Shown in pieces: positions 1-38,084 of a DNA stretch of 64,000 bases (its first letter is position 1; every line of letters starts with the position of its first letter). A model generated the notes under the pieces. It ran no database searches and had not been told where the DNA came from. It worked only from the letters and a program-made list of their open reading frames with translations. The DNA comes from Trypanosoma brucei (Eukaryota): assembly GCA_000002445.1 (NCBI GenBank), contig AL929603.2:160001-224000 (forward strand), written 5' to 3'. Both the position numbers and the translations under genes were made by a program.

Positions 1-346
1 GGTGAATGTCAGTCACACGCCTTATGACTTGTGCGACCCACTGCCTCGTCACGGTAATTTAGAGATTGCTGTGCTCACCTCGCAGAAGAGTTGGCCATAT
101 AACTCTTTCAGCATTCCGGAACATGCAATTCAAGAGGATGCGGAGGAACCAGGAGACTACGTGTTTGACCGGGATGTGTACGTTCGTCGAGAGGTAATGA
201 GAGTGTGGTATCTTGTGAAGCACAGGCTGGATTTGTGGCTGGAGTCAGAGCTGATCGAAAAACAGATTCCTTGCGTCCTCGTCGGCAGTGCAGGTATTGG
301 GAAATCAGTTGGTGCTGGCTATTATATTCGACTTACGCTGGTTTAG
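1..346 (+). pseudogene. RHS (retrotransposon hot spot) protein gene, N-terminal/central fragment ending just after the P-loop, interrupted by ingi copy 1; 5' end lies outside the window
   Basis: The frame 2-346 reads VSHTP..PLPRHGNLEIAVLTSQ...VGSAGIGKS. It aligns residue-for-residue with the RHS part of the minus-strand ORF 11858-14089 (VSHTPETMKEPLPRHGNLEIAVLTSQ...VGTPGIGKS). GxxGxGKS is the RHS P-loop that sits just upstream of the known ingi/RIME hot spot. A stop at 346 and ingi homology from about 424 make it a pseudogene. Confidence 0.7.
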
Positions 347-638
347 TGGTTATGTAGATTGGTCGTCGCAGATAGTACCGGAATCGATTCCCGCGGCCAG
401 CGAGTATTTAGCTTACACTAAGAATGAATCTGCCTCAACGTGGTGCCAGGGTCCGGTACCCCGTATCATCGGGGGAAGCCAAGAGCCAGCAGCGTTATTC
501 CCATAGGGAACACTGCTTTGCTCCGGCTACGGCATCATACAGCACAGGGATCAGCAGCGTCTTGCTGGGACACCGTTTTTCATTTGTCGGTCCCTGGGCA
601 CGTGCCAGCGTGCCATCAGCAGTATCATCCGCACTAAG

Positions 639-677
639 ATGCTGCTGTCCGGTGATGTGGAAGAGAATCCCGGCCCG
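639..677 (+). other. 2A-like co-translational 'skipping' peptide (MLLSGDVEENPGP) at the N-terminal region of ingi ORF1
   Basis: This is the canonical D(V/I)ExNPGP motif. It is known from T. cruzi L1Tc and T. brucei ingi. The same motif is on the minus strand at 12752-12790 (copy 2) and in the fragment at about 36840. In copy 3 (31449-31487) it is mutated to NPGS. Confidence 0.8.
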
Positions 678-1571
678 TCGTTGCGCGGGATGCAGTGGAA
701 CTGCGCCGGGCTATCTCAAGGAAAGAGATTAGCACTCCACAAAACCCTTGTTGATGAGCGGATCGCCTTTTGTCTGTTGAGCGAGACAAGGATGACGCCT
801 GGAGAGGCGGCTTGCTTTAGCGTTGCTGGTTACCAACATCGCGGAATAGCTCGTAACTGCAAAGGAGGTGGTGTATCAATACTAGTGAGGGAGGACCTAC
901 CAGTCGAGACCGGTATGGCCGTTGTTGGTCGCATTGAACAAGTGCATGCAACAATTCACCTTGCACGTGGAACGGCGCTGACTGTCACGTCGGCATACAT
1001 CCCACCAAAACACACCTTTACGGCAACTGACATAGATACGCTTCTGACAACTGACGGTGCCCAGCTCATCGGTGCAGACGCTAATGCACACGCGTTGGCA
1101 TGGGATCGCGCGAGCCCACCAAATACCAAGGGTGAAACCCTCACACAGTGGTGCATTGACAACCAGTTTCTGGTCTGCAACACTGGTGAGTGCACCAGGT
1201 ACGCGTGCCACCACGGGGAGTCCACCCCTGATGTGACACTGTCAAGGAATTGCACAGTGTACACGTGGACATCGCTGTATTCTCCCGATAGCGATCACCA
1301 TCACATATTTTTCGACGTTATCGTTGGAGACGACACAGATGCACTGAGTTGCCCGCGGCTTCGAAAGCCCATGTACGCATGGCTAAAAGCTAACTGGAGG
1401 AATTTCCGTCTCAAGGTTGACGAGCTCTGCAGGAAAATTGGTAGAGAGAAGAACGTCAACACCCTGGAACAGAAATTGAGCTCCGCCATCCGCATTGGAC
1501 ACCTGCGCTCGCGAAACTCGATGAAGAGATCGCTGGATGCGGACCCTCCCGCCGAAGGGAAAAGTTGGTAG
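639..1571 (+). CDS. ingi ORF1: 2A peptide + apurinic/apyrimidinic-type endonuclease domain
   Basis: 310-aa ORF with the APE-family C-terminal SDH signature (YSPDSDHHHIFFDV) and the GADANAHALAWD segment. It ends at a TAG at 1569-1571. The translation is identical across the three copies. Confidence 0.8.
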   Translation: MLLSGDVEENPGPSLRGMQWNCAGLSQGKRLALHKTLVDERIAFCLLSETRMTPGEAACFSVAGYQHRGIARNCKGGGVSILVREDLPVETGMAVVGRIEQVHATIHLARGTALTVTSAYIPPKHTFTATDIDTLLTTDGAQLIGADANAHALAWDRASPPNTKGETLTQWCIDNQFLVCNTGECTRYACHHGESTPDVTLSRNCTVYTWTSLYSPDSDHHHIFFDVIVGDDTDALSCPRLRKPMYAWLKANWRNFRLKVDELCRKIGREKNVNTLEQKLSSAIRIGHLRSRNSMKRSLDADPPAEGKSW

Positions 1572-4500
1572 CCACGCGTAAGCAGATCCTGGACCGTACC
1601 ACAAAGAAGAGATGGAGCACGCTATGCTCCAGACTTGCGGTGTCAGACCGCTGCAGTTGGCACATTGTCAAGAAGGTATATGCGCCACGACCACTAACCA
1701 CACCGGCTGTACTTGTAGATAACGCGGCCATCACGGACTACCGTCAAGCTGAGAGGTTCAGTAAACTGTACTCGTCCCGCGCAAGAAGGCACCCCGACTC
1801 ACACCCACCGGCACCAATAAAGACGATAGCGAGTGAGTTCAGTCCCATCACGATGGCTGAACTACGGAGATCGATCAAACTGCTACCGAGTGGATCCGCC
1901 GCCGGACCTGATTGCTTATACAACGAGGCACTACAACATCTCGGCAGAACAGCGCTGAATGTTGTTCTGTGGCTATTCAATGAGAGCCTACGAACGGGAG
2001 TCGTGCCGCCTGCATGGAAGACTGGTGTTATCATCCCCATCCTGAAGGCCGGAAAAAAGGCGGAGGACCTCGATTCTTACAGGCCAGTGACGCTCACGAG
2101 CTGTCTCTGCAAAGTCATGGAGCGCATAATTGCCGCGAGACTTAGAGACACTGTTGAGTCCCAGCTGACGCCGCAGCAATCAGGCTTTCGCCCCGGATGC
2201 TCAACGCTCGAACAACTCCTGCACGTCCGCGCTGCCCTCTGCCGTCCCACGCACCAATCTCGTACGGGTGCTGTATTCGTTGACTACGAGAAGGCATTCG
2301 ATACAGTAGACCACGACAAAATTGCGAGGGAAATGCACAGAATGAAGGTATCACCCCACATTGTGAAGTGGTGCGTATCATTTCTGAGTAACCGAACTGG
2401 CAGAGTGAGATTCAAGGAGAAGCTTTCCAGAAGCAGAACATTTGAGCGAGGAGTGCCACAAGGAACTGTCCTTGGCCCAATCATGTTCATTATTGTCATG
2501 AACTCGTTGAGCCAACGCCTTGCAGAAGTGCCGTTACTGCAGCACGGATTCTTTGCAGACGACCTAACGCTACTTGCGAGGCACACAGAAAGGGATGTCA
2601 TCAACCACACACTACAATGCGGCCTAAACGTGGTGTTACAGTGGTCAAAAGAGTACTTCATGTCTGTCAACGTAGCGAAAACAAAGTGCACACTCTTCGG
2701 GTGTATAGAGCGCCACCCCCTTACATTACAACTGGAAGGCGAAAGAATAGGAGCTGACAGGACACCGAAGCTTCTAGGAGTAACATTCCAGTGTCTGCAG
2801 GGGATGGCAACACATGCGGCCGAAACGAGACGCAAGATGGACTTCCGACTACTGCAGATAGCGGCCATCTCAGCTTCTACATGGAGGCCAAGACGACAAG
2901 TACTGAGAGCTTTTTATCTAGCACTCGTACAGGCACACACCATGTATGGCATTGAGGTATGGTACTGGGACGCTTCGGAACGAAGTCGCGACCTCCTTGC
3001 ATCAGCACAACACAAAGCCAGTCGCATCATAGCCGGCATACCGCATGGGACGCGCAAAGAGGACTCTCTGCTGGAAGCAAACCTCCTGCCACTCAAGACG
3101 ACCACTCTTGTGCGCAGCATGAAATTCATGCTGATGTGTGAGTCACGAGGCGGATGTTTGCGGCGCAGTGCTGAAGAAGTATACCACAGCAAACACCCAG
3201 TCAGAGTCTTACATTCCCGCATCATGCGGTCCTACCCCCACCTCCGCATTGAGCCACGCGAGCACCCACTAGAGACATCGACGCTCCGCCACAGCTGCCG
3301 ACCGATATTTCACACGCAGATAAAGCCTGTGTGCGCTGATGACCCTGACGATGTCAAAAGGGAGGCTTCCGAAAAGTGGATTGAACGACATTTTGCACGG
3401 AGGGGGAAGGAGCCACCGCGGCGAGAGCACTACGAATTGTGGACTGATGGATCCGTGTCCCTCGGTGAGAAGACCGGGGCAGCTGCCCTGCTCTATAGAA
3501 ACAACACGCTGATTTGCGCACCCAAAACTGGAGCAGGGGAACTCTCATGCAGTTACAGAGCGGAATGCGTAGCATTAGAGATAGGACTGCAACGGCTGCT
3601 GAAATGGCTTCCGGCATACAGAAGCACACCGAGCAGGTTGTCCATCTTCTCTGACTCGCTGTCAATGTTAACAGCACTGCAGACAGGCCCCCTAGCCGTA
3701 ACGGACCCAATTCTGAGACGACTATGGAGGCTTCTGCTTCAAGTTCAGAGAAGGAAGGTGCGTATCCGACTGCAATTTGTGTTTGGCCATTGTGGCGTGA
3801 AACGGAATGAGGTTTGCGATGAAATGGCCAAAAAGGCCGCAGATTTACCACAGTTGCGAGACACATGGATCCCCGACATCATTGCTTATGCGAAGCGAGT
3901 GCTTAGGTCGGAAGAAGTCCATGAGAACACTCATAGGTTTGGTATCACGGGCAACCACTTTCCAACAAAACATAAGGAAGAACTGACGAGGGAAGAAGAA
4001 ACGGCACTGGCACGCTTTCGGGTTGGGTCTTCAAGACACTATGGATGGATGTTGCGAAAGATCAACCCGAGTGTGCCTCCACAGTGTCGATGGTGTAACC
4101 CGCAACATGCAGCGATAGGGCCAACAATACAAACACAAAAGGCCCCAATTGTTGCGACACGCACTCTTCAGAGAACCTCCGAACCGACCAAATGTACGGA
4201 ATGTGATGCCACATACCAATGCCGCTCGAGTGCTGTAACGCATATGGTAAACAAACACGGCTTTGTGCGAGCTGATGCCCTCCGGAGGATAAAATACGGC
4301 GATGCAACACCTGCAGTGGATATCCCCCCGGAGCCCCCTCCAGTGGTGGCGATCGTTCCTCTACCATCGAGCACACGAGTCCCGATAAGACCACAGGTGC
4401 TTCATTGTACCCTCTGTGCCTCCAAATTCGCAGTGCCAGGGCGACTATTACACCACCTTAGAACAATACATGGCATAGGCAGCGGCAGTTGCCGCGTGAA

Positions 4501-5353
4501 AAGGGGGCGAGAGAACGAGGACTCAGTGCAAGGAGATGGTAAAGCCCCAGCAGCGCCAGCCTCTCAGGATACACGGAAGCTGCCGTTTCAATGTGACCTG
4601 TGCGAGGCGAGCTTCGGTACACGCTCTTCCCTGTCACTACACAAGAAATTCAAACATAAAAGCATAGTGACTGAGGACGGTGCCGTGGTGGTGGTGCAAT
4701 TCCCTCGTAAGCGTGCCCGTGAGGGAAACGTTGACGTCCCGGGGAAAGGCGAGGTGCAGTGCGGTGTGTGCCAAAAAGTGCTCAGTTGCAGGGACTCCCT
4801 CATCCGACACTGTAAGGCTTTCCACAAAGGTGAGGTAGTCGAGCTTAAATGCAGCAAAAGCACAAAATTGTGTGCCACTGATTCCCCCCATACAAACACA
4901 TCCATGTTGGTGTGCCCGACATGCGGAAGGCAGTGTGCTAGCAAAACTGGCCTCACCCTACATCAAAAGAAGATGCACGGTATGAAGGTAGAGCGCGCTG
5001 TTACCAGCCAACGCGGCGACTGCGAAGAAACGTCGCTGCACTTGATGAGCTGTCCCGGTTTGAAGAAGTTACGTGTCAGGTTTGCGGTAGAAGGTGAGTG
5101 TGTGCAGGATGTATGTTTCTCCAAAAGGCTGGCGCAGTTTCTCATTGCGGTTGAACGGAGCCGGCCGCAGGTGAAGTCCTCACCTAAGGTAACAGTCATA
5201 CAACCCACTCTTCCTTCTGCAACTTCCCCCCTTATTGCCGAGTGTGGAGCTAGCAGGAAAAGCACCGGACGCAGGAATAGTCCAGACACCCTCAGAGACA
5301 GAGGAGGTATGCTGTCAACAAGCAACAGAAACAGAAAGAGGGGGAGAGAATAA
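1565..5353 (+). CDS. ingi ORF2: reverse transcriptase / RNase H / C2H2 zinc-finger protein
   Basis: 1262 aa. Reverse transcriptase motifs are present (PQGTVLGP, GFFADDLTLL as the YXDD-box variant FADD). The RNase H region includes YELWTDGS. There are five C-terminal C2H2 fingers (CTECDATYQC..H..H, HCTLCASKF..H..H, FQCDLCEASF..H..H, CGVCQKV..H..H, CPTCGRQC..H..H). The first codon listed is TTG. The real start is undetermined, and the frame is -1 relative to ORF1. Confidence 0.85.
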   Translation: MVATRKQILDRTTKKRWSTLCSRLAVSDRCSWHIVKKVYAPRPLTTPAVLVDNAAITDYRQAERFSKLYSSRARRHPDSHPPAPIKTIASEFSPITMAELRRSIKLLPSGSAAGPDCLYNEALQHLGRTALNVVLWLFNESLRTGVVPPAWKTGVIIPILKAGKKAEDLDSYRPVTLTSCLCKVMERIIAARLRDTVESQLTPQQSGFRPGCSTLEQLLHVRAALCRPTHQSRTGAVFVDYEKAFDTVDHDKIAREMHRMKVSPHIVKWCVSFLSNRTGRVRFKEKLSRSRTFERGVPQGTVLGPIMFIIVMNSLSQRLAEVPLLQHGFFADDLTLLARHTERDVINHTLQCGLNVVLQWSKEYFMSVNVAKTKCTLFGCIERHPLTLQLEGERIGADRTPKLLGVTFQCLQGMATHAAETRRKMDFRLLQIAAISASTWRPRRQVLRAFYLALVQAHTMYGIEVWYWDASERSRDLLASAQHKASRIIAGIPHGTRKEDSLLEANLLPLKTTTLVRSMKFMLMCESRGGCLRRSAEEVYHSKHPVRVLHSRIMRSYPHLRIEPREHPLETSTLRHSCRPIFHTQIKPVCADDPDDVKREASEKWIERHFARRGKEPPRREHYELWTDGSVSLGEKTGAAALLYRNNTLICAPKTGAGELSCSYRAECVALEIGLQRLLKWLPAYRSTPSRLSIFSDSLSMLTALQTGPLAVTDPILRRLWRLLLQVQRRKVRIRLQFVFGHCGVKRNEVCDEMAKKAADLPQLRDTWIPDIIAYAKRVLRSEEVHENTHRFGITGNHFPTKHKEELTREEETALARFRVGSSRHYGWMLRKINPSVPPQCRWCNPQHAAIGPTIQTQKAPIVATRTLQRTSEPTKCTECDATYQCRSSAVTHMVNKHGFVRADALRRIKYGDATPAVDIPPEPPPVVAIVPLPSSTRVPIRPQVLHCTLCASKFAVPGRLLHHLRTIHGIGSGSCRVKRGRENEDSVQGDGKAPAAPASQDTRKLPFQCDLCEASFGTRSSLSLHKKFKHKSIVTEDGAVVVVQFPRKRAREGNVDVPGKGEVQCGVCQKVLSCRDSLIRHCKAFHKGEVVELKCSKSTKLCATDSPHTNTSMLVCPTCGRQCASKTGLTLHQKKMHGMKVERAVTSQRGDCEETSLHLMSCPGLKKLRVRFAVEGECVQDVCFSKRLAQFLIAVERSRPQVKSSPKVTVIQPTLPSATSPLIAECGASRKSTGRRNSPDTLRDRGGMLSTSNRNRKRGRE

Positions 5354-5625
5354 TAAACGAATAACAAAAATCAAAACAAAAGGATTGCTAATTGACATCT
5401 TTGGGAGAGTCCAGGGTGGGAGGCTTCTCGCCCCATCTGCTGTATTCCGTTCATATGCGGAAATACAACAAAAATTATAGAGGGTGTGTTAGGATGAATG
5501 AAAAAGGGAGACTCTGCCACAGTCGCCAGACCGATAGCATCTCAGGGCTCTACGGTGATGGCTGATGGCCGCGCCAGTGAGGGGAAACTCCCACGAAGGC
5601 ACGAAGAAAATTCTAAAAAAAAAAA

Positions 5626-6308
5626 TTCTCCTTCACAAACTAAAGCATGATGCCAGAGTATTGCCTGTTACCGCATATTTTATAGGAGTTCATGCATGCA
5701 TATATATATATATATATATGTCTGTGTTGTATCTTGGAACGTTGCGCCCATATGGCAAATGGATTGGAAGACTGCTGCTGCATAAATTCATCAACCTTGG
5801 TCGCATCTATCGTACAGGAGATTCCGAAACGTATGTGTGCACGCTGCACTTTGAATCCGCATTGAGGGTGGTAACTTTCCAGTCGCGCAGAGACGTTGCA
5901 CGACAACATTGTGTGAGGAGAGTCACTCATATACAGATCAGTTTTGTCTTGTGTTTTGAAGGTGATGCCGCAAGTGCTTTCGATTTTCCCAGGGTATTAT
6001 TTCCTTTTATTGACATGATAGGGTCATTGCCCGCAACCGCGGAGTGGAAACAGGAAACGATGCAGGATGTCAGCGTGTTGAACCGCCTGAGCGATATTTT
6101 CCTGAACTTCGGTAAAGCACAGCGCCTTCCAAATATCCATGAGGGAACAATCAACTCTCCACACACCATGCAACTTTACGGGTTCCCACCCATTTTCCCA
6201 CTATTTGATACCTTGTTTGTTGTGGATTGCGACACAACCACCGAAGTTGAAAATCAACGAAAAATAAACGGTGGTGATGTTGCAATTCCAAACTGCTGGA
6301 TCACATGA
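5626..6308 (+). pseudogene. possible decayed downstream continuation of the RHS gene interrupted by ingi copy 1
   Basis: Directly after the poly(A), the 12 nt ttctccttcaca (LLLH-type hot-spot sequence) is followed by an open frame of 247 codons. That frame contains a (TA)10 microsatellite (5700-5719) and has no recognisable domain. It sits where the 3' half of an interrupted RHS is expected. Homology is not demonstrable by eye. Confidence 0.25.
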
Positions 6309-7275
6309 TAACAAAACAGGAACAGCCCTTAATATGCTCGAGAATCCTGTCCTTCTAACATGTGATGCGAATAGGGATATGTTTTTGAGAAATTTTATGA
6401 ATGAATTTGGGTGGGGAGTTATTTGTGCTCAGCATGTTGCCGTCAGAAAGATGAGACGCCAACAATTGTGCAACGATACAGCGGGCAAATGAAGTGAGGA
6501 AGATCGCAAATATGTTCATTTATTTTGGGCCAACAGTATGAAACATTACCTTGTGCAATTTAATGTTAATACCGTCGCTATGTTAGCTATTGAAAATATT
6601 GCGGGGAGGGGAAGTAACCGACATGGATGTAAATCATGAAAGAGCGGCTGTGGGAAATCAATAAAAGAGAGGAAGGAGAAGAGTAAACGGGGAAAACATC
6701 AACAAAAGAGTGTGGAAACAAATAATCACGGCAGGTGATGTCACGGTATAACTCTGTGTTAGGAGGGTTGTGGACTCTATCAAAATTAACCTCTCGGCAG
6801 TAAGCACAGTTAACAACGAGCGTATGATCCCTTTTTAAAATTTGGTTACTTTAATTCGTTTTTTTTATTACTTAACGATGTTAACATTAGATACGATATG
6901 CATTTTTTGTAGAAGCACATATGTGTTAATGAAAACATTGCAACATTGTTTACATCAGATATTAATACTTAGCTGCCTAACCGTAATTTCCTACAGAGCG
7001 TGTCGTTTACGGTTTTCATTTCTACCAGATGGATGTCACATATTGTGTTTAATATTTTACACTGAGTGATGTGCCCGAAATATTTTTTTTTCTTAATCGT
7101 CGACGCCCCTTTCACCTTTTCATGTATTCTCCTAATTTTTCTCTACCATTTGTTACATAAGGTGCGCACAGATACGATTGTATGAAGGTTTCTGTGCAAG
7201 AAGCCGAGGTGTCCAGTTCACTATTTATTTGATGGAAAGTCATTATTTTGAGTGTGCGATTCGTTGTACATTCAC

Positions 7276-7786
7276 TTTTTTTTTTTTTAAAAGTTGTCTT
7301 CGTGCCTTCGTGGGAGTTTCCCCTCACTGGCGCGGCCATCAGCCATCACCGTAGAGCCCTGAGATGCTATCGGTCTGGCGACTGTGGCAGAGTCTCCCTT
7401 TTTCATTCATCCTAACACACCCTCTATAATTTTTGTTGTATTTCCGCATATGAACGGAATACAGCAGATGGGGCGAGAAGCCTCCCACCCTGGACTCTCC
7501 CAAAGATGCCAATTGGCAATCCTTTTTTTTTCGGAGGTCCACATCACCGGACAGCAGCATCTTAGTGCGGATGATATACTGCTGATGGCACGCTGGCACG
7601 TGCCCAGTGACAGAAAAATGAAAAACGGTGTCCCAGCAAGACGCTGCTGATCCCTGTGCTGTATGATGCCGTAGCCGGAGCACAGCAGTGTTCCCCATGA
7701 AAGGAACGCTGCTGGCTCTTGGCTTCCCCCGATGATACGGGGTACTGGACCCTGGCACCACGTTGAGGTGGCCGGCATCGCCAGGG
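7276..7786 (-). mobile_element. RIME (ribosomal mobile element, ~511 bp): 5' ~255 bp + 3' ~245 bp of ingi, complete, poly(T) 7276-7288 on + strand
   Basis: The span 7289-7530 is the reverse complement of the ingi 3' terminus seen at 5380-5614. The span 7535-7786 is the reverse complement of the ingi 5' terminus, ending ...cctggcaccacgttgaggtggccggcatcgccaggg. The internal deletion joint falls inside the 2A coding motif (LLSGDV|DLRKK). Confidence 0.85.
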
Positions 7787-7798
7787 TGTATAACAAAA
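7787..7798. repeat. 12-nt target-site duplication tgtataacaaaa (left copy) of ingi copy 2, shared with the adjacent RIME
   Basis: An identical 12-mer lies at 13015-13026 immediately outside the ingi 5' end. On the minus strand it encodes the F-L-L-Y-T hot-spot residues of RHS. Confidence 0.8.
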
Positions 7799-8081
7799 TT
7801 TTTTTTTTTTTTTTAGAATTTTCTTCGTGCCTTCGTGAGAGTTTCTCCCAACTGGCGCGGCCATCAGCCATCACCGTAGAGCCCTGAGATGCTATCGGTC
7901 TGGCGACTGTGGCAGAGTCTCCCTTTTTCATTCATCCTAACACACACACTCTCTATAATTTTTGTTGTAGCTCCGCAGTTGAACGGAATACAGCAGATGG
8001 GGCGAGAAGCCCCCCTCACCCCGGACTCTCCCAAAGATGTCAATTAGCAATCCTTTTGTTTTGATTTTTGTTATTCGTTTA

Positions 8082-11000
8082 TTATTCTCTTCTCCTCTTT
8101 CTGTTTCTGTTGCTTGTTGATTGCATACCCCCTCTGTCTCTAAGGGTGTCTGGACTATTCCTGCGTCCGATGCTTTTCCTGCTAGCTCCACATTCGGCAA
8201 TAAGGGGGGAAGTTGCAGAAGGGAGAGTGGGTTGTATGACTGTTACCTTAGGTGAGGACTTCACCTGCGGCCGGCTCCGTTCAACCGCAATGAGAAACTG
8301 CGCCAGCCTTTTGGAGAAACATACATCCTGCACACACTCACCTTCTACCGCAAACCTGACACGTAACTCCTTCAAACCGGGACAGCTCATCAAGTGCAGC
8401 GACGTTTCTTCGCAGTCGCCGCGTTGGCTGGTAACAGCGCGCTCTACCTTCATACCGTGCATCTTCTTTTGATGTAGGGTGAGGCCAGTTTTGCTAGCAC
8501 ACTGCCTTCCGCATGTCGGGCACACCAACATGGATGTGTTTGTATGCGGGGAATCAGTGGCACACAATTTTGTGCTTTTGCTGCATTTAAGCTCGACTAC
8601 CTCACCTTTGTGGAAAGCCTTACAGTGTCGGATGAGGGAGTCCCTGCAACTGAGCACTTTTTGGCACACACCGCACTGCACCTCGCCCTTCCCCGGGACG
8701 TCAACGTTTCCCTCACGGGCACGCTTACGAGGGAATTGCACCAACACCACGGTACCGTCCTCCGTCACTATGCTTTTATGTTTGAATTTCTTGTGTAGTG
8801 TCAGGGAAGAACGTGTACCGAAGCTCGCCTCGCACAGGTCACATTGAAACGGCAGCTTCCGTGTATCCTGAGAGGCTGGCGCTGCTGGGGCTTTACCATC
8901 TCCTTGCACTGAGTCCTCGTTCTCTCGCCCCCTTTTCACGCGGCAACTGCCGCTGCCTATGCCATGTATTGTTCTAAGGTGGTGTAGTAGTCTGCCTGGC
9001 ACTGCGAATTTGGAGGCACAGATGGTACAATGAAGCACCTGCGGTCTCATCGGGACTCGTGTGCTCGATGGTAGGGGAACGATCGCCACCACTGGAGGGG
9101 GCTCCGGGGGGATATCCACTGCAGGTGTTGCATCGCCGTATTTGATCCTCCGGAGGGCATCAGCTCGCACAAAGCCATGTTTGTTTACCATATGCGTTGC
9201 AGCACTCGAGCGGCATTGGTATGTGGCATCACATTCCGTACATTTGGTCGGTTCGGAGGTTCTTTGAAGAGTGCGTGTCGCAACAGTTGGGGCCGTTTGT
9301 ATTGTTGGCCCTATCTCTGCATGTTGCGGGTTGCACCATCGGCACTGTGGAGGCACACTCGGGTTGATCTTTCGCAACATCCATCCATAGTGCCTTGAAG
9401 ACCCAACCCGAAAGCGTGCCAGTGCCGTTTCTTCTTCCCTCGTCAGTTCTTCCTTATGTTTTGTTGGAAAGTGGTTGCCCGTGATACCAAACCTATGAGT
9501 GTTCTCATGGACTTCTTCCGACCTAAGCACTCGCTTCGCATAAGCAATGATGTCGGGGATCCATGTGTCTCGCAACTGTGGTAAATCTGCGGCCTTTTTG
9601 GCCATGTCATCGCAAACCTCATTCCGTTTCACGCCACAATGGCCAAACACAAATTGCAGTCGGATACGTATCTTCCTTCTCTGAACTTGAAGCAGAAGCC
9701 TCCATAGTCGTCTTAGAATTGGGTCCGTTACGGCTAGGGGGCCTGTCTGCAGTGCTGTTAACATTGACAGCGAGTCAGAGAAGATGGATAACCTGCTCGG
9801 TGTGGTTCTGTATGCCGGAAGCCATTTCAGCAGCCGTTGCAGTCCTATCTCTAATGCTACGCATTCCGCTCTGTAACTGCATGAGAGTTCCCCTGCTCCT
9901 GTCTTAGGTGCGCAAATCAGCGTGTTGTTTCTGTAGAGCAGGGCAGCTGCTCCGGACTTCTCACCGAGGGACACGGATCCATCAGTCCACAATTCGTAGT
10001 GCTCTCGCCGCGGTGGCTCCTTCCCCCTCCGTGCAAAATGCCGTTCAATCCACTTTTCGGAAGCCTCCCTTTTGACATCGTCAGGGTCATCAGCGCACAC
10101 AGGCTTTATCTGCGTGTGAAATATCGGTCGGCAGCTGTGGCGGAGCGTCGATGTCTCTAGTGGGTGCTCGCGTGGCTCAATGCGGAGGTGGGGGTAGGAC
10201 CGCATGATACGGGAATGTAGGGCTCTGACTGGGTGTTTGCTGTGGTATACTTCTTCAGCACTGCGCCGCAAACATCCGCCTCGTGACTCACACATCAGCA
10301 TGAATTTCATGCTGCGCACAAGAGTGGTCGTCTTGAGTGGCAGGAGGTTTGCTTCCAGCAGAGAGTCCTCTTTGCGCGTCCCATGCGGTATGCCGGCTAT
10401 GATGCGACTGGCTTTGTGTTGTGCTGATGCAAGGAGGTCGCGACTTCGTTCCGAAGCGTCCCAGTACCATACCTCAATGCCATACATGGTGTGTGCCTGT
10501 ACGAGTGCTAGATAAAAAGCTCTCAGTACTTGTCGTCTTGGCCCCCATGTAGAAGCTGAGATGGCTGCTATCTGCAGTAGTCGGAAGTCCATCTTGCGTC
10601 TCGTTTCGGCCGCATGTGTTGCCATCCCCTGCAGACACTGGAATGTTACTCCTAGAAGCTTCGGTGTCCTGTCAGCTCCTATTCTTTCACCGTCCAGTTG
10701 TAATGTAAGGGGGTGGCGCTCTATACACCCGAAGAGTGTGCACTTTGTTTTCGCTACGTTGACAGACATGAAGTACTCTTTTGACCACTGTAACACCACG
10801 TTTAGACCGCACTGTAGTGCGTGGTTGATGACATCCCTCTCTGTGTGCCTCGCAAGTAGCGTTAGGTCGTCTGCAAAGAATCCGTGCTGCAGTAACGGCA
10901 CCTCTGCAAGGCGTTGGCTCAACGAGTTCATGACAATAATGAACATGATTGGGCCAAGGACAGTTCCTTGTGGCACTCCTCGCTCAAATGTTCTGCTTCT

Positions 11001-11864
11001 GGAAAGCTTCTCCTTGAATCTCACTCTGCCAGTTCGGTTACTCAGAAATGATACGCACCACTTCACAATGTGGGGTGATACCTTCATTCTGTGCATTTCC
11101 CTCGCAATTTTGTCGTGGTCTACTGTATCAAATGCCTTCTCGTAGTCAACGAATACAGCACCCGTACGATATTGGTGCGTGGGACGGCAGAGGGCAGCGC
11201 GGACGTGCAGGAGTTGTTCGAGCGTTGAGCATCCGGGGCGAAAGCCTGATTGCTGCGGCGTCAGCTGGGACTCAACAGTGTCTCTAAGTCTCGCGGCAAT
11301 TATGCGCTCCATGACTTTGCAGAGACAGCTCGTGAGCGTCACAGGCCTGTAAGAATCGAGGTCCTCCGCCTTTTTTCCGGCCTTCAGGATGGGGATGATA
11401 ACACCAGTCTTCCATGCAGGCGGCACGACTCCCGTTCGTAGGCTCTCATTGAATAGCCTCAGAACAACATTCAGCGCTGTTCTACAGAGATGTTGCAGTG
11501 CCTCGTTGTATAAGCAATCAGGTCCGGCTGCGGATCCACTCGGTAGCAGTTTGATCGATCTCCGTAGTTCAGCCATCGTGATGGGACTGAACTCACTCGC
11601 TATCGTCTTTATTGGTGCCGGTGGGTGTGAGTCGGGGTGCCTTCTTGCGCGGGACGAGTACAGTTTACTGAACCTCTCAGCTTGACAGTAGTCCGTGATG
11701 GCCGCGTTATCAACAAGTACAGCCGGTGTGGTTAGTGGTCGTGGCGCATATACCTTCTTGACAATGTGCCAACTGCAGCGGTCTGACACCGCAAGTCTGG
11801 AGCATAGCGTGCTCCATCTCTTCTTTGTGGTACGGTCCAGGATCTGCTTACGCGTGGCTACCAA
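8082..11864 (-). CDS. ingi ORF2 (RT/RNase H/zinc finger), copy 2
   Basis: 1260 aa, more than 98% identical to copy 1 ORF2 by eye. It has the same FADD, WTDGS and C2H2 motifs. Confidence 0.85.
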   Translation of the reverse strand: MVATRKQILDRTTKKRWSTLCSRLAVSDRCSWHIVKKVYAPRPLTTPAVLVDNAAITDYCQAERFSKLYSSRARRHPDSHPPAPIKTIASEFSPITMAELRRSIKLLPSGSAAGPDCLYNEALQHLCRTALNVVLRLFNESLRTGVVPPAWKTGVIIPILKAGKKAEDLDSYRPVTLTSCLCKVMERIIAARLRDTVESQLTPQQSGFRPGCSTLEQLLHVRAALCRPTHQYRTGAVFVDYEKAFDTVDHDKIAREMHRMKVSPHIVKWCVSFLSNRTGRVRFKEKLSRSRTFERGVPQGTVLGPIMFIIVMNSLSQRLAEVPLLQHGFFADDLTLLARHTERDVINHALQCGLNVVLQWSKEYFMSVNVAKTKCTLFGCIERHPLTLQLDGERIGADRTPKLLGVTFQCLQGMATHAAETRRKMDFRLLQIAAISASTWGPRRQVLRAFYLALVQAHTMYGIEVWYWDASERSRDLLASAQHKASRIIAGIPHGTRKEDSLLEANLLPLKTTTLVRSMKFMLMCESRGGCLRRSAEEVYHSKHPVRALHSRIMRSYPHLRIEPREHPLETSTLRHSCRPIFHTQIKPVCADDPDDVKREASEKWIERHFARRGKEPPRREHYELWTDGSVSLGEKSGAAALLYRNNTLICAPKTGAGELSCSYRAECVALEIGLQRLLKWLPAYRTTPSRLSIFSDSLSMLTALQTGPLAVTDPILRRLWRLLLQVQRRKIRIRLQFVFGHCGVKRNEVCDDMAKKAADLPQLRDTWIPDIIAYAKRVLRSEEVHENTHRFGITGNHFPTKHKEELTREEETALARFRVGSSRHYGWMLRKINPSVPPQCRWCNPQHAEIGPTIQTAPTVATRTLQRTSEPTKCTECDATYQCRSSAATHMVNKHGFVRADALRRIKYGDATPAVDIPPEPPPVVAIVPLPSSTRVPMRPQVLHCTICASKFAVPGRLLHHLRTIHGIGSGSCRVKRGRENEDSVQGDGKAPAAPASQDTRKLPFQCDLCEASFGTRSSLTLHKKFKHKSIVTEDGTVVLVQFPRKRAREGNVDVPGKGEVQCGVCQKVLSCRDSLIRHCKAFHKGEVVELKCSKSTKLCATDSPHTNTSMLVCPTCGRQCASKTGLTLHQKKMHGMKVERAVTSQRGDCEETSLHLMSCPGLKELRVRFAVEGECVQDVCFSKRLAQFLIAVERSRPQVKSSPKVTVIQPTLPSATSPLIAECGASRKSIGRRNSPDTLRDRGGMQSTSNRNRKRRRE

Positions 11865-13006
11865 CTTTTCCCTTCGGCGGGAGGGTCCGCATCCAGCGAT
11901 CTCTTCATCGAGTTTCGCGAGCGCAGGTGTCCAATGCGGATGGCGGAGCTCAATTTCTGTTCCAGGGTGTTGACGTTCTTCTCTCTACCAATTTTCCTGC
12001 AGAGCTCGTCAACCTTGAGACGGAAATTCCTCCAGTTAGCTTTTAGCCATGCGTACATGGGCTTTCGAAGCCGCGGGCAACTCAGTGCATCTGTGTCGTC
12101 TCCAACGATAACGTCGAAAAATATGTGATGGTGATCGCTATCGGGAGAATACAGCGATGTCCACGTGTACACTGTGCAATTCCTTGACAGTGTCACATCA
12201 GGGGTGGACTCCCCGTGGTGGCACGCGTACCTGGTGCACTCACCAGTGTTGCAGACCAGAAACTGGTTGTCAATGCACCACTGTGTGAGGGTTTCACCCT
12301 TGGTATTTGGTGGGCTCGCGCGATCCCATGCCAACGCGTGTGCGTTAGCGTCTGCACCGATGAGCTGGGCACCGTCAGTCGTCAGAAGCGTATCTAGGTC
12401 AGTTGCCGTGAAGGTGTGTTTTGGTGGGATGTATGCCGACGTGACAGTCAGCGCCGTTCCACGTGCAAGGTGAATTGTTGCATGCACTTGTTCAATGCGA
12501 CCAATAACGGCCATACCGGTCTCGACTGGTAGGTCCTCCCTCACTAGTATTGATACACCACCTCCTTTGCAGTTACGAGCTATTCCGTGATGTTGGTAGC
12601 CAGCAACGCTAAAGCAAGCCGCCTCTCCAGGCGTCATCCTTGTCTCGCTCAACAGACAAAAGGCGATCCGCTCATCAACAAGGGTTTTGTGGAGTGCTAA
12701 TCTCTTTCCTTGAGATAGCCCGGCGCAGTTCCACTGCATCCCGCGCAACGACGGGCCGGGATTCTCTTCCACATCACCGGACAGCAGCATCTTAGTGCGG
12801 ATGATACTGCTGATGGCACGCTGGCACGTGCCCAGGGACCGACAAATGAAAAACGGTGTCCCAGCAAGACGCTGCTGATCCCTGTGCTGTATGATGCCGT
12901 AGCCGGAGCACAGCAGTGTTCCCCATGAAAGGAACGCTGCTGGCTCTTGGCTTCCCCCGATGATACGGGGTACTGGACCCTGGCACCACGTTGAGGTGGC
13001 CGGCAT
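11858..13006 (-). CDS. ingi ORF1 (2A + endonuclease), copy 2, open from the element's first ATG and fused in frame to upstream RHS codons
   Basis: The frame is continuous from MPATSTWCQGPVPRIIGG... through IIRTKMLLSGDVEENPGP into the endonuclease domain and ends at TAG. It is part of the single ORF 11858-14089. Confidence 0.8.
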   Translation of the reverse strand: MPATSTWCQGPVPRIIGGSQEPAAFLSWGTLLCSGYGIIQHRDQQRLAGTPFFICRSLGTCQRAISSIIRTKMLLSGDVEENPGPSLRGMQWNCAGLSQGKRLALHKTLVDERIAFCLLSETRMTPGEAACFSVAGYQHHGIARNCKGGGVSILVREDLPVETGMAVIGRIEQVHATIHLARGTALTVTSAYIPPKHTFTATDLDTLLTTDGAQLIGADANAHALAWDRASPPNTKGETLTQWCIDNQFLVCNTGECTRYACHHGESTPDVTLSRNCTVYTWTSLYSPDSDHHHIFFDVIVGDDTDALSCPRLRKPMYAWLKANWRNFRLKVDELCRKIGREKNVNTLEQKLSSAIRIGHLRSRNSMKRSLDADPPAEGKSW

Positions 13007-13014
13007 CGCCAGGG

Positions 13015-13026
13015 TGTATAACAAAA
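13015..13026. repeat. 12-nt target-site duplication tgtataacaaaa (right copy) of ingi copy 2
   Basis: It is identical to 7787-7798. It lies between the ingi 5' end and the RHS codons ...GSFLLYT. Confidence 0.8.
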
Positions 13027-14089
13027 AGGATCCCACGGAAAACGATTTACCAATACCAGGTGTACCAACAAGAACATTGGATGCCCGGTCGATATTCAGC
13101 TTGCCCATAAGCCACTGGTTAAGCCGTTCCTCAACCTTATGCCACACCCTCAGTGCTTCCCTACGGATATAAACGTCATCGTTAAAAACGTGATCCACTC
13201 CCTTCTTGTGATTAATATCATAATCCACTATGTCCGACAGGAAAAACGTGCACGGCCAACCCATTTGAGATGTAAGCACAGCAATCTCCAAGTTACCGTG
13301 ACGGGGAAGTGGTTCCTTCATAGTTTCCGGAGTGTGACTGACATCAACCTCCTCCTTCGTCCACATGTGCGGTGGCCTTCCATCGAACACTTTCATGCCA
13401 AGTCGCTCTGTATTATAACCCGACATCACATAACTCCATTTTGCATTATATATGGAATCATAAACATCTGGGAGTTCGGCACCACCGGCTGTTTGGGCAG
13501 CTCTCTCCCATACTTCCTTGGCGACCTCCAGTGCTCCATCCAACCTTCCCCTCGCCACGGGACCAACAAATTCCCTTATTTCCACTGTCCCCCTCCTTTC
13601 CCACTGCCGGAGATAGTAAATTTCCTTTTCGTCAAGGTAGTCTACCTTCTCAGACAGATCAATAGCTGTCTTCACTGTTTTAAACTCATTAGTGCCTTGT
13701 ATATCCTCAAGAATCTCGGCATCAACAATATATCTTCTGGGATTCTTAACAAAAATAGGCATCCTAACATTTTCTGCCTCAGCCACCGCAAAAGTCCCGC
13801 CAACGAACTCCTGAATAAAGTCGTTCACTGTCATTTTACGCAAACCCTCATACCGTTGCAGCAGCGCATCTTCCAGCAGCACATCCCTCACCTTACTATT
13901 CATTGTCCAATTGGGCCCCCCTTCATTTCCCTGGCGGATTTGTGGAGGCTGAGCAGCAGCAGCAGGAGGAGGAGGAGGCGGCGGTACATTTTCATCCCGT
14001 GGCCTCCTCATGGGCCCTTCAAAATTATCTGCCACTTGTTGATTTTCATTATTTCCTTGTGGAGCTGCGGGACTATTTGCTCTTGACAT
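13015..14089 (-). pseudogene. RHS protein gene, N-terminal ~358 codons (Pro/Ala-rich N-terminus, P-loop GTPGIGKS), interrupted at the hot spot by ingi copy 2 and reading in frame into it
   Basis: Sequence MSRANSPAAP...PPPPPPPAAAAQPP...VSHTPETMKEPLPRHGNLEIAVLTSQ...LVGTPGIGKSFSVGSFLLYTL, followed immediately by the ingi 5' end. The minus strand carries a GGA/GGC/GCA triplet-repeat-encoded Pro/Ala tract at about 13930-13990. Confidence 0.75.

Positions 14090-29532: not shown

Positions 29533-29571
<39 letters not shown>
29533..29571. repeat. (AAT)13 microsatellite
   Basis: Perfect trinucleotide run, seen directly in the sequence. Confidence 0.95.
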
Positions 29572-30840: not shown

Positions 30841-31223
30841 ATGGACAACGAAACTCAAATGCTGGGCATGAAGTTTGTTGATGGAACGCGTGCTGATGAT
30901 ATAATGTGGAAAGATGAAGAAGTTAATGTCGTCCCCAAAATTGAGGAAGCTGTTGAGCATAAGCCGGAACGCACGGGAAGAAGTTGAAGCAATGGTTCCA
31001 ACATCTCAAATGGAGTGGTCGTACTCACAGTTTAATATTTAAATTCACAATGACATTCTCATTCAGAGAAAGGACTGGAGACTGTGAAATGTTGTGGAAA
31101 GAAGGCTCTGCGCTTGGCCAGCTGAGGAAACTCGAATACTAAGACACGCACCAAATCCTTACATTGTGATTGGAAACTCCAGAATCAGTAAGTCACTGGC
31201 CACCGGCTCACTTCTCCTTCACA
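30841..31223 (+). pseudogene. short degenerate RHS remnant ending at the hot spot (…ISKSLATGSLLLHTL) immediately 5' of ingi copy 3
   Basis: The last about 25 codons before the ingi 5' end read VIGNSRISKSLATGSLLLHTL. This is homologous to LVGTPGIGKSFSVGSFLLYTL of the RHS at 13015-14089. The upstream frame is broken. Confidence 0.4.
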
Positions 31224-31248
31224 CCCTGGCGATGCCGGCCACCTCAAC

Positions 31249-38050: not shown

Positions 38051-38084
38051 GAATTCTTGCTCAATTTTGGTGAATAAAAAAAAT

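What the first reader, a model, noticed from the sequence alone, without database searches (positions are those of the whole stretch)
1..14089. Convergent pair of full-length ingi elements forming a ~5.2-kb inverted repeat around a 2.2-kb spacer
The ingi at 424-5625 (+) and the ingi at 7799-13014 (-) are near-identical and face each other tail to tail. RHS N-terminal gene fragments sit on the outer side of each, at 1-346 (+) and 13015-14089 (-). Read-through transcription from either side would produce kilobase-scale, perfectly complementary RNA. T. brucei RNAi is known to generate abundant ingi-derived siRNAs, so this locus is an obvious candidate dsRNA source. Inverted repeats of this size are also hot spots for hairpin-mediated breakage or inversion and for assembly collapse. 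The RHS flanks differ in subfamily, and the 5' end of copy 1 is degenerate, so the arms come from separate insertions and not from one palindromic duplication.
Basis: partly seen in the sequence, partly recalled or inferred. Interest (0 to 1): 0.6.

Follow-up and report, generated by a model that had tools for sequence, protein, structure and literature searches.

The report
Tail-to-tail ingi retrotransposons in RHS cluster
Two 5.2-kb ingi retrotransposons do face each other on Trypanosoma brucei TREU927 chromosome 1, but they are ordinary, defective, separately inserted copies in a recombination-scrambled RHS pseudogene cluster, and their proposed role as a double-stranded RNA source is plausible, unproven and not special to this locus.

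Summary
Ingi-1 (433-5625, +) and ingi-2 (7799-13014, -) are convergent and 98.2% identical (93 mismatches plus indels), not perfectly complementary. The "2.2-kb spacer" also holds a 511-bp RIME (7276-7786, -) in tandem with ingi-2. The unique spacer is 1,650 bp, and about 1 kb of it is a decayed RHS6-like C-terminal pseudogene. The window is TREU927 chromosome 1.

The arms are no more alike than either is to a third copy (ingi-3, 31224-36433), and homology stops at the element ends, so this is not a palindromic duplication. All three copies share a 49-nt frameshifting deletion and cannot be autonomous. Only ingi-2 has matching 12-bp target-site duplications.

T. b. equiperdum has the same spacer (99.3% identical) between one convergent ingi pair, but its outer flanks are those of the window's ingi-3 and of an inverted ingi fragment at 36434-37090. 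Four other T. brucei read assemblies have an empty site at 7276. TREU927 has therefore re-partnered both arms by recombination among ingi/RIME copies.

The dsRNA idea needs read-through across the spacer. Ingi siRNAs, inverted-repeat loci and convergent-transcription loci are already known, and this locus is not on the published lists. Interest is low.

The parts
1..337 (+). RHS-Na: an RHS pseudogene fragment cut by the window start. It holds the end of RHS_N, the P-loop GIGKS and the hot-spot 12-mer ATTCGACTTACG at 326-337.
   Evidence: Pfam RHS_N 1e-39. tblastn of RHS proteins covers 2-358. Sequence read directly. 49% amino-acid identity to RHS-Nb.
338..432 (+). 95 nt of unassigned sequence between the RHS-Na hot spot and the truncated 5' end of ingi-1. 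This is a non-canonical junction without a TSD.
   Evidence: Alignment of the four 5' flanks. No tRNA. No Rfam match. No similarity to RHS P-loop regions above shuffled controls.
433..5625 (+). Ingi-1, the left arm. It covers ingi nt 19 to the end, with poly(A) at 5615-5625, and lacks the first 18 nt of the Pr77 hallmark. It carries the 49-nt frameshifting deletion at 1497/1498 and an extra frame break near its 5' end.
   Evidence: blastn. Junction sequences. Pfam Exo_endo_phos, RVT_1, RNase_H and zf-C2H2. Frame analysis. Deletion mapped against the intact equiperdum copy.
5626..6609 (+). RHS-Cc: the remnant of an RHS6-like gene downstream of its hot spot. It comprises the 12-mer TTCTCCTTCACA (5626-5637), about 21 codons of RHS, a (TA)n-type tract, and then the equivalent of RHS6a aa 518-806. 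It has an internal deletion of about 157 codons and a frameshift.
   Evidence: phmmer hit to RHS6a (AAL14357) at 1e-17. Pfam domains of the hits. BLASTP and tblastn coordinates. Pfam itself did not detect it in the spacer.
5626..7275 (.). Unique spacer between the arms (1,650 bp). It is the only part of the locus to which reads can be mapped uniquely.
   Evidence: No other copy in the window. 99.3% identical to the T. b. equiperdum spacer. 98.6-98.9% identical to four Logan contigs.
7276..7786 (-). RIME (511 bp, made of the first ~250 and last ~250 nt of ingi), with poly(A) at 7276-7288. Its 3' junction with the spacer is the same site as the 3' end of the full-length minus-strand ingi in T. 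b. equiperdum. It has no TSD of its own.
   Evidence: blastn of ingi-2 against the window. Junctions. Breakpoint alignment. Collinearity with L005.
7787..7798 (-). 3' copy of the ingi-2 target-site duplication TTTTGTTATACA. It is also the 5' flank of the RIME.
   Evidence: Sequence read directly.
7799..13014 (-). Ingi-2, the right arm. It is full length (5,216 nt) with an intact 5' end (CCCTGGCG...), poly(A) at 7799-7814, and the 49-nt deletion at 11932/11931.
   Evidence: blastn. Pfam domains. 96% identity to a T. b. equiperdum reverse transcriptase. Deletion mapped.
13015..14089 (-). RHS-Nb: a complete RHS N-terminal half, from ATG at 14089 through DUF7578, RHS_N and the P-loop to the hot spot. 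The 5' TSD copy lies at 13015-13026. It is in frame with the ingi-2 endonuclease region, giving a 743-codon ORF (11858-14089).
   Evidence: Pfam. tblastn. The best database protein is only 69% identical.
30727..31223 (+). RHS-Nc: an RHS6-like N-terminal fragment ending in TTCTCCTTCACA. It is the original upstream half of the gene whose downstream half is RHS-Cc at 5626.
   Evidence: tblastn gives 60% identity to RHS6a aa 191-253. The 12-mer and reading frame match. The two halves are contiguous around one ingi in T. b. equiperdum.
31224..36433 (+). Ingi-3, a third full-length copy carrying the same 49-nt deletion (at 32308/32309). Its 5' junction belongs with the 3' junction of ingi-1.
36434..37090 (-). 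Inverted ingi 5' fragment (ingi nt 1-655) abutting the poly(A) of ingi-3. It corresponds to the 5' end of the minus-strand arm of the equiperdum pair.
   Evidence: blastn. Inverted repeat 31204-31880 / 36434-37110. L005 21474-24971 matches window 36434-39931.

Best explanation
The locus is a piece of the RHS/ingi/LRRP region at the left of T. b. brucei TREU927 chromosome 1.

Structure. Two separately inserted, non-autonomous ingi copies lie tail to tail around a 1.65-kb remnant of an RHS6-like gene.

History.
- One ingi entered the hot spot of an RHS6-like gene in + orientation, making the TSD TTCTCCTTCACA.
- A second element later landed in - orientation 1.65 kb downstream, at window position 7276.
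- This convergent core is shared with T. b. equiperdum. Its right-hand insertion is absent from four other T. brucei read assemblies.
- In the TREU927 lineage, recombination and deletion among ingi/RIME copies then re-partnered both arms.
- The left arm now starts at ingi nt 19 behind a different RHS fragment.
- The right arm is now a RIME followed by ingi-2, a bona fide hot-spot insertion in yet another RHS gene.
- The original outer flanks now sit 24-31 kb to the right, joined through ingi-3 and a 655-nt inverted ingi fragment.

Function (inferred, not shown).
- Each arm is transcribed in the sense direction from its RHS side, and ingi-2 and the RIME also from their own Pr77 regions.
- Double-stranded ingi RNA arises here only when RNA polymerase II reads across the spacer into the opposite arm. 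That would give either a fold-back transcript or overlapping convergent transcripts.
- Dicer would then process this RNA into siRNAs, which join the genome-wide ingi/RHS pool loaded on TbAGO1.
- The locus would be one of many contributors to that pool, not a dedicated source.
For: Anatomy and family:
- Repeats and boundaries.
- APE, RT, RNase H and zinc-finger domains.
- 96% identity to T. b. equiperdum reverse transcriptase, and more distant Tcoingi/Tvingi-type hits.

Source genome: exact protein matches to TREU927 chromosome 1 entries (XP_001218761, XP_001218763, XP_001218757, XP_846409).

Separate origin of the arms:
- Flanks and spacer are unique in the window.
- RHS-Na and RHS-Nb are 49% identical.
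- Pairwise ingi identities are 98.2 (1 vs 2), 98.5 (1 vs 3) and 98.9 (2 vs 3).
- Ingi-2 has a perfect TSD.

Defective copies: all three share a 49-nt deletion relative to the intact 1,656-aa equiperdum ORF.

Spacer is an RHS6-like remnant.

Shared core and re-partnering:
- Equiperdum locus L005 runs collinearly LRRP, RHS-Nc, ingi(+), spacer, ingi(-), then the window 37091-39931 flank.
- TTCTCC(T)TCACA lies on both sides of its + copy.
- Its arms are 98.26% identical and its spacer is 99.3% identical to the window's.

Empty site at 7276: seen in four Logan contigs, with the breakpoint exactly at the RIME poly(A).

Functional background:
- Ingi/RHS supply 52% of AGO1-bound small RNAs, with sense about equal to antisense; long inverted repeats and convergent units also give siRNAs (PMC3447711).
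- H3.V limits dual-strand transcription, and ingi siRNAs rise in its absence (PMC4721609).
- The first 77 nt of ingi/RIME act as promoter and HDV-like ribozyme (PMC4035085; PMC12278014).
Against: - No expression or small-RNA data could be examined, so the dsRNA step is inference only.
- The locus is absent from the published inverted-repeat (7 loci), convergent-unit (chromosome 1: 636-642 kb and 721-736 kb) and miscellaneous siRNA lists. Those authors used strain YTat1.1 and pooled all ingi/RHS reads, so this is only weak evidence against strong siRNA production from the spacer.
- The exact path from an equiperdum-like ancestor to the TREU927 order is unresolved. No single inversion between ingi copies reproduces it, and the equiperdum sequence to the left of L005 could not be fetched.
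- The Logan contigs could come from a paralogous copy and not from an allele.
- Internal sequence does not show clear orthology between particular TREU927 and equiperdum ingi copies. Orthology therefore rests on junctions and flanks.
Confidence: 0.72

Rival explanations
1. Assembly artefact. The TREU927 reference mis-joins reads inside the three ~98.5% identical 5.2-kb ingi copies, so the real chromosome does not place ingi-1 and ingi-2 next to each other in this way.
For: - Three of the four complete elements have discordant flanks (ingi-1, ingi-3 and the RIME).
- The two halves of one insertion (RHS-Nc with its 12-mer, and the 12-mer with RHS-Cc) lie 30 kb apart in the window but are contiguous in T. 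b. equiperdum.
- The exact TREU927 allele of the spacer ORF is not in the protein collection.
Against: - The inner junctions (ingi 3' end to spacer, and spacer to the 3' end of a minus-strand element) are seen independently in T. b. equiperdum, and the left one also in four read assemblies.
- The odd junctions are short unique sequences that a single Sanger read could span: RHS-Na + 95 nt + ingi nt 19; spacer + 511-bp RIME + TSD + ingi-2 poly(A); ingi-3 poly(A) + ingi nt 655 inverted. This point is inference.
- Re-pairing the 5' and 3' junctions by TSD would close the block spacer, RIME, ingi-2, RHS-Nb, LRRP, RHS-Nc, ingi into a circle. That does not give a simpler linear chromosome (worked by hand).
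Confidence: 0.1
2. Palindromic (inverted segmental) duplication: one ingi-containing segment was copied in inverted orientation.
For: The arms are long and 98.2% identical.
Against: - Homology ends exactly at the element boundaries, and the flanks are unrelated apart from family-level RHS similarity.
- The arms are the least similar pair among the three copies in the window.
- Ingi-2 has its own perfect TSD in a different RHS gene.
- The right arm's insertion site is empty in four other samples.
Confidence: 0.02
3. Transcriptionally inert pair. Transcription from both sides ends in or before the spacer (a small convergent strand-switch region marked by H3.V and base J), or the pseudogene cluster is barely transcribed. 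The locus then makes only sense ingi RNA or none, and ingi siRNAs come from other copies.
For: - The locus is not among the listed siRNA loci outside the pooled ingi/RHS class.
- H3.V restrains read-through at convergent regions (PMC4721609).
- Ingi-1 lacks the first 18 nt of the Pr77 promoter/ribozyme region.
Against: - siRNAs were detected at all convergent units examined, and inverted-repeat spacers also gave small RNAs, which implies that read-through is common (PMC3447711).
- Ingi-2 and the RIME keep intact 5' ends and point toward the spacer.
Confidence: 0.3
4. Dedicated hairpin-RNA master locus. The convergent pair is kept by selection as a principal trigger of RNAi against ingi.
For: The convergent arrangement around the same spacer is present in TREU927 and in T. 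b. equiperdum even though the outer partners differ.
Against: - Recombination inside the arms automatically preserves the inner junctions, so retention needs no selection.
- The right-hand insertion is missing in four other T. brucei samples.
- The window itself contains other inverted ingi combinations.
- The arms are 98% identical, whereas the recognised siRNA-producing inverted repeats are 99-100% (PMC3447711).
Confidence: 0.07

Closest known systems
Ingi/RIME insertions at the conserved hot spot of RHS (retrotransposon hot spot) genes in the chromosome I RHS cluster of T. brucei TREU927. Source: Bringaud et al. 2002, Eukaryot Cell 1:137, cited in PMC7563717; the paper itself is not held, so its content is from my knowledge of it.
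   Same: - RHS N-terminal half plus P-loop, then an element inserted just after the P-loop in the same orientation and, for ingi-2, in frame.
- Tandem ingi-RIME at one site with a repeated 12-bp TSD.
- Location on TREU927 chromosome 1 next to LRRP genes.
   Different: - Only ingi-2 (and ingi-3 at its 5' side) shows the canonical junction.
- Ingi-1 begins 95 nt past the hot spot of its upstream RHS fragment and lacks 18 nt.
- The RIME has the hot-spot TSD only at its 5' end.
- The two RHS units face each other, whereas an RHS array would normally be head to tail.
Long inverted repeats IR1-IR7 and convergent transcription units that give TbAGO1-bound siRNAs (Tschudi et al. 2012, PMC3447711).
   Same: - Kilobase-scale inverted repeat with a spacer of a few kb.
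- Genes on the two sides point toward each other.
- The expected product would be 23-26-nt siRNAs from the arms and the spacer.
   Different: - The published repeats are not transposons and are 99-100% identical; here the arms are members of a multi-copy family at 98.2%.
- This locus is not in the published tables.
- siRNA production from it has not been shown.
Ingi/L1Tc-clade non-LTR retrotransposons carrying the Pr77 hallmark, which acts as promoter and HDV-like ribozyme (PMC4035085, PMC1874656, PMC12278014).
   Same: Domain order APE, RT, RNase H, zinc fingers; a conserved 5' end shared with the RIME; poly(A) tail; 12-bp TSD.
   Different: All three copies in the window carry a 49-nt deletion that breaks the single 1,656-1,657-codon ORF, and ingi-1 also lacks the first 18 nt of the hallmark.
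Hairpin-RNA (hpRNA) loci and inverted transposon pairs that feed endogenous siRNA pathways in flies, plants and mammals. This is a general concept, referred to in the introduction of PMC3447711.
   Same: An inverted transposon pair could give a fold-back transcript that Dicer processes.
   Different: There is no evidence here of a single transcript covering both arms, and trypanosome transcription is polycistronic without defined terminators.

Membership tests
Ingi (Tbingi) non-LTR retrotransposon | [quoted passage not shown] | tested here: met
   Lengths are 5,193 / 5,216 / 5,210 nt. Pfam finds Exo_endo_phos(_2), RVT_1, RNase_H and zf-C2H2. 96% identity to T. b. equiperdum reverse transcriptase.
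Ingi (Tbingi) non-LTR retrotransposon | Conserved 5' hallmark (Pr77) shared with the RIME, and a 3' poly(A) tail | tested here: met
   Ingi-2, ingi-3, the RIME, the 655-nt fragment and both equiperdum copies all start CCCTGGCGATGCCGGCCACCTCAACG. Poly(A) tails are 11-16 nt. Ingi-1 lacks the first 18 nt. Promoter and ribozyme activity cannot be tested here.
Ingi (Tbingi) non-LTR retrotransposon | Flanking target-site duplication of about 12 bp | tested here: inconclusive
   Met for ingi-2 (TTTTGTTATACA on both sides) and for the equiperdum + copy. Not met for ingi-1, ingi-3 or the RIME, whose flanks were exchanged.
Autonomous (potentially functional) ingi | Single uninterrupted ORF of about 1,657 codons | tested here: not met
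   Each copy has two open segments (354-384 and 1,300-1,302 codons) because of a shared 49-nt deletion relative to the intact 1,656-aa equiperdum ORF P0174.
RIME | About 500 bp made of the first ~250 and last ~250 nt of ingi, with poly(A) | tested here: met
   7276-7786 is 511 nt. Ingi nt 1-~250 matches 7786-7538 (98%) and the last ~260 nt matches 7531-7276 (91-97% depending on the copy).
RHS (pseudo)gene with a retroelement at the hot spot | RHS_N domain, then the P-loop, with the element inserted right after the P-loop (Pfam RHSP position ~22) in the gene's orientation | tested here: met
   The 743-codon ORF 11858-14089 contains DUF7578, RHS_N, RHSP positions 1-22 and then the ingi endonuclease. 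The same position holds for ingi-3 and for the equiperdum copy. The 5' junction of ingi-1 is not at the hot spot.
siRNA-producing long inverted repeats (Tschudi 2012 IR class) | Near-identical long arms | tested here: met
   5.2-kb arms at 98.2%, which is lower than the 99-100% of IR1-IR7.
siRNA-producing long inverted repeats (Tschudi 2012 IR class) | AGO1-bound 22-26-nt RNAs from the arms and from the spacer | not testable with these tools
   No read data are available. The locus is not in Table 3 or the supplementary lists of PMC3447711.
Convergent transcription unit / convergent strand-switch region | Coding strands of the flanking units point toward each other | tested here: met
   RHS-Na and ingi-1 lie on +, and RHS-Nb, ingi-2 and the RIME lie on -. 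Actual transcription and termination were not tested.

The most novel reading that the evidence does not exclude
The convergent ingi, RHS6-remnant, ingi core is an evolutionarily retained hairpin-RNA locus. It seeds RNAi against the whole ingi/RIME/RHS-fusion family. It has been kept in TREU927 and T. b. equiperdum despite exchange of both outer partners, and it is polymorphic (empty site) in other strains. On this reading, strains would differ in their capacity to silence ingi.
Probability: 0.07. Interest if true: 0.55.

Novelty: new member of a known kind. Interest (0 to 1): 0.25.

Why it matters
If read-through across the 1.65-kb spacer occurs, this locus is one concrete, uniquely mappable place where antisense ingi RNA is made. 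The origin of antisense ingi RNA is usually hidden by multi-mapping reads.

The three states found here make the locus a convenient natural test of whether a convergent ingi pair adds measurably to ingi siRNAs:
- empty site (four T. brucei read assemblies);
- simple convergent pair (T. b. equiperdum);
- re-partnered pair (TREU927).

The states also give a worked example of ingi/RIME-mediated reshuffling of an RHS cluster. None of this changes current understanding. Ingi-derived siRNAs, RHS hot-spot insertions and retroelement-driven rearrangement of these clusters are established.

Tried and rejected
1. tRNA idea. The 95 nt at 338-432 looked tRNA-like by eye (acceptor-like pairing, a GGAATCGATTCC T-loop-like motif). 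ARAGORN found nothing and Rfam found nothing at E up to 10, so I dropped it. Local alignment of the (slightly offset) stretch 347-432 to the RHS P-loop regions was also no better than shuffled controls.

2. Rfam. A scan of the whole window at gathering thresholds gave 0 hits. The ingi 5' end gave only chance hits, and no HDV-like ribozyme family matched.

3. Pfam on the spacer. A scan of all six frames gave nothing. The RHS6-like remnant was found only by the exhaustive phmmer search.

4. Exact-protein look-ups. Window ORFs and a TREU927 LRRP found no gene positions, so TREU927 itself seems not to be indexed. The source genome was identified through the listing of cluster members instead.

5. 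Missing comparisons. T. b. gambiense DAL972 chromosome 1 starts about 3.5 kb left of the 43196-44017 homologue and lacks the region.

6. Single-inversion models. Recombination between ingi-1/ingi-2, ingi-2/ingi-3 or ingi-1/fragment, worked by hand, does not convert the equiperdum order into the TREU927 order.

7. Orthology from internal sequence. I compared the RIME halves and the 655-nt fragment with each copy. The differences were too small to assign orthology.

8. Papers. Bringaud 2002 and Hall 2003 are not held.

9. Promoter/terminator scan. I did not use it, because it models bacterial signals.

Full report
**What is in the sequence.** The inverted repeat is real. The repeat finder reports arms 433-4134/9295-12996 (3,702 nt, 99%) and 4132-5423/8012-9303 (1,292 nt, 97%). 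blastn of the right arm against the window aligns 433-5625 at 97.98% over 5,199 columns. A MAFFT alignment gives 98.2% identity, with 93-94 mismatches and a handful of indels. The arms are therefore near-identical but not perfectly complementary. The longest exact run is 631 nt, and 44 exact runs of at least 25 nt cover 4,624 nt.

[quoted passage not shown] The large ORF is 96% identical to a T. b. equiperdum reverse transcriptase, with weaker hits to ingi-type elements of T. vivax, T. congolense and other kinetoplastids.

Exact protein matches place the window on T. b. brucei TREU927 chromosome 1. These are two phosphate permeases, an RNA polymerase III subunit, an LRRP and a hypothetical protein. 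The window covers the right edge of the RHS/LRRP/ingi region and the start of the core, which includes DOT1, PHO4 x2 and BRCA2.

**Corrections to the anatomy.**
- Ingi-2 is exactly 7799-13014 (-). It starts CCCTGGCG..., ends in 16 A, and is flanked on both sides by TTTTGTTATACA (13015-13026 and 7787-7798).
- Directly after that second TSD copy comes a 511-bp RIME (7276-7786, -). It consists of the first ~250 and last ~250 nt of ingi. The '2.2-kb spacer' is therefore a RIME plus a 1,650-bp unique spacer (5626-7275). There are nested extra arms, for example 5373-5625 against 7279-7531 at 97%.
- Ingi-1 begins at 433 with ingi nt 19. The preceding RHS fragment reaches its hot-spot 12-mer at 326-337, and 95 nt of unassigned sequence lie in between.
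- Ingi-1 ends in 11 A, followed by TTCTCCTTCACA. That 12-mer does not occur at its 5' side.
- The outer flanks are RHS N-terminal halves: RHS_N 1e-39 on the left; DUF7578 + RHS_N + the first 22 positions of the P-loop domain on the right, in frame with the ingi-2 endonuclease as a 743-codon ORF.
- The two RHS fragments are 49% identical in protein. They share only 92 nt at 78% in DNA.

**The spacer.** No Pfam family matches any frame of the spacer. An exhaustive phmmer search of the 230-codon open frame that follows ingi-1 does hit RHS6a (AAL14357, E 1e-17) and a TREU927 RHS protein. BLASTP and tblastn place spacer codons 4-30 on RHS6a aa 334-360, just after the hot spot. They place 5727-6263 and 6244-6609 on aa 518-806. 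The first kilobase of the spacer is therefore the downstream half of an RHS6-like gene. It has an internal deletion of about 157 codons next to a (TA)n-type tract, and a frameshift. The remaining ~650 nt have no match.

**Are the arms a duplication of one another?** No.
- Homology stops at the element ends.
- A third full-length copy, ingi-3 (31224-36433, +), is closer to each arm (98.5% and 98.9%) than the arms are to each other (98.2%).
- Published divergence landscapes put the recent ingi burst in T. brucei at about 3% K2P (PMC12278014). An identity of 98% is therefore simply the family level.
- All three TREU927 copies share a 49-nt deletion between CATTG repeats near ingi nt 1090. It splits the reading frame into 354-384 and 1,300-1,302 codons, whereas an equiperdum copy has the intact 1,656-codon ORF. 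None of the copies in the window can be autonomous.

**Comparative evidence.** The 5' flank of ingi-3 (an RHS N-terminal fragment, 60% identical to RHS6a aa 191-253) ends in the same 12-mer, TTCTCCTTCACA, and in the same frame as the 3' flank of ingi-1.

In T. b. equiperdum (CM010672.1:74,944-99,914, locus L005) these two halves are contiguous around a single ingi that carries the intact ORF. The order is:
- LRRP;
- RHS-Nc;
- ingi(+), with TTCTCC(T)TCACA on both sides;
- the same spacer, 99.3% identical over 1,655 aligned columns;
- a full-length ingi(-);
- the sequence that in the window lies at 37091-39931.

The equiperdum arms are 98.26% identical. The 3' junction of the minus-strand arm is at exactly the window's 7276. 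Its 5' 655 nt and flank correspond to the window's inverted ingi fragment at 36434-37090, which abuts the ingi-3 poly(A) with no spacer.

Four Logan read assemblies (ERR7929156, ERR7929157, ERR7929161, ERR7929163) carry the ingi 3' end, the 12-mer and the whole spacer at 98.6-98.9%. They run straight past 7276 into about 0.6 kb that is absent from both the window and L005. The divergence begins at the first T of the RIME poly(A) run. One of these samples also carries a protein identical to a window core gene, so the samples are T. brucei sensu lato.

**Most likely history (inferred).**
1. An ingi entered the hot spot of an RHS6-like gene.
2. A second element later landed in the opposite orientation 1.65 kb downstream. 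The site is still empty in some strains.
3. This gave the convergent core seen in T. b. equiperdum.
4. In the TREU927 lineage, recombination and deletion among ingi/RIME copies then exchanged the partners on both sides.

The results are as follows. The left arm is now attached, through a non-canonical junction, to a different RHS fragment. The right arm is now a RIME joined to ingi-2 in a third RHS gene. The original outer flanks lie 24-31 kb to the right, around ingi-3 and the 655-nt fragment.

I could not find a single inversion that produces this order. A tandem duplication by unequal exchange between minus-strand elements, followed by two deletions, would do it. Testing that needs the equiperdum sequence left of L005, which the tools would not return.

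A mis-join inside the long repeats of the TREU927 assembly remains possible, and I rate it at about 0.1. The inner junctions are independently confirmed. The unusual junctions are short unique sequences. Re-pairing the junctions by TSD gives a circle, not a simpler linear map.

**Function.** Tail-to-tail elements transcribed from their own 5' sides both yield sense RNA. Double-stranded ingi RNA would arise here only if polymerase II runs across the spacer into the other arm.

That is plausible in T. brucei:
- Small RNAs are found at all convergent transcription units and in the spacers of long inverted repeats.
- Ingi/RHS account for 52% of AGO1-bound small RNAs, with sense about equal to antisense (PMC3447711).
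- Loss of H3.V increases siRNAs at convergent regions and at ingi (PMC4721609).
- Ingi-2 and the RIME keep the complete 5' hallmark, which in this clade acts as promoter and HDV-like ribozyme. Ingi-1 lacks its first 18 nt, including one strand of the CCCTGGC/GCCAGGG pairing.

Nothing, however, singles this locus out:
- Its arms are multi-copy sequence.
- It is not among the seven published inverted repeats, the two chromosome 1 convergent units (636-642 kb and 721-736 kb) or the miscellaneous loci.
- The window itself holds other inverted ingi combinations, including a zero-spacer one at 36433/36434.

On instability, the comparative data show breakpoints exactly at element ends, as expected for homologous recombination among ingi/RIME copies. 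The convergent core with its spacer has nevertheless survived in two lineages. That does not suggest strong hairpin-driven fragility.

**Verdict.** This is a further instance of known things: ingi/RIME in RHS hot spots, transposon-mediated reshuffling of RHS clusters, and transposon-derived dsRNA sources. Its useful feature is a uniquely mappable 1.65-kb spacer and three natural structural states for testing read-through. Interest is low (0.25).

Noticed in passing
window 36433/36434 (ingi-3 31224-36433 +; fragment 36434-37090 -): The ingi-3 poly(A) abuts, with no spacer, an inverted copy of ingi nt 1-655. This forms a 677-nt inverted repeat (31204-31880 / 36434-37110, 97%). A read-through ingi-3 transcript would end in the antisense of its own 5' end. 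The fragment is the remnant of the minus-strand arm of the T. b. equiperdum pair.
   Followed up: partly
window 1497/1498, 11932/11931, 32308/32309; L005 11076-11124: All three TREU927 ingi copies share a 49-nt deletion between CATTG direct repeats that breaks the ORF. The T. b. equiperdum copy at the orthologous RHS-Nc site has the intact 1,656-codon ORF, and its minus-strand partner has a different 16-nt deletion at the same place.
   Followed up: partly
window 338-432: 95 nt of unassigned sequence lie between an RHS hot spot and a 5'-truncated ingi. It looked tRNA-like by eye, but ARAGORN and Rfam were negative. It may be a decayed continuation of the RHS gene (LV*WLCRLVVAD).
   Followed up: yes
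L001-L004 (Logan ERR7929157, ERR7929163, ERR7929161, ERR7929156), positions ~1694-2334: An empty-site haplotype. The spacer continues past window position 7276 into about 0.6 kb that is absent from the window and from the equiperdum locus. In L002 this stretch ends in a segment 84% similar to the region upstream of the RHS-Nb start codon (window 14299-14356), as expected for a head-to-tail RHS array.
   Followed up: partly
window 63509-64000 (within BRCA2 ORF 60727-63897, -): A 132-bp tandem repeat at 99% identity runs to the window end. These are the BRC repeats of BRCA2 (Pfam BRCA2 repeat and OB1 domain). The ORF as listed starts inside the array.
   Followed up: no
window 51882-57711: Two PHO4-type phosphate permease genes (52455-54005 and 56164-57711, -) lie in a 3.7-kb tandem duplication that is 98-100% identical.
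   Followed up: no
window 14001-18000 and 26001-30000: AT-rich blocks (GC 0.30-0.34) flank the LRRP gene (21680-26029, +). The first lies between the divergently oriented RHS-Nb and LRRP, and could be a divergent strand-switch region.
   Followed up: no
protein P0001 (T. b. gambiense DAL972, 'RHS pseudogene', 464 aa): This annotated database protein is itself an in-frame read-through from an RHS N-terminal half into a RIME (aa 347-464 match the translation of window 7786-7427). Such fusions are therefore annotated as proteins elsewhere.
   Followed up: no
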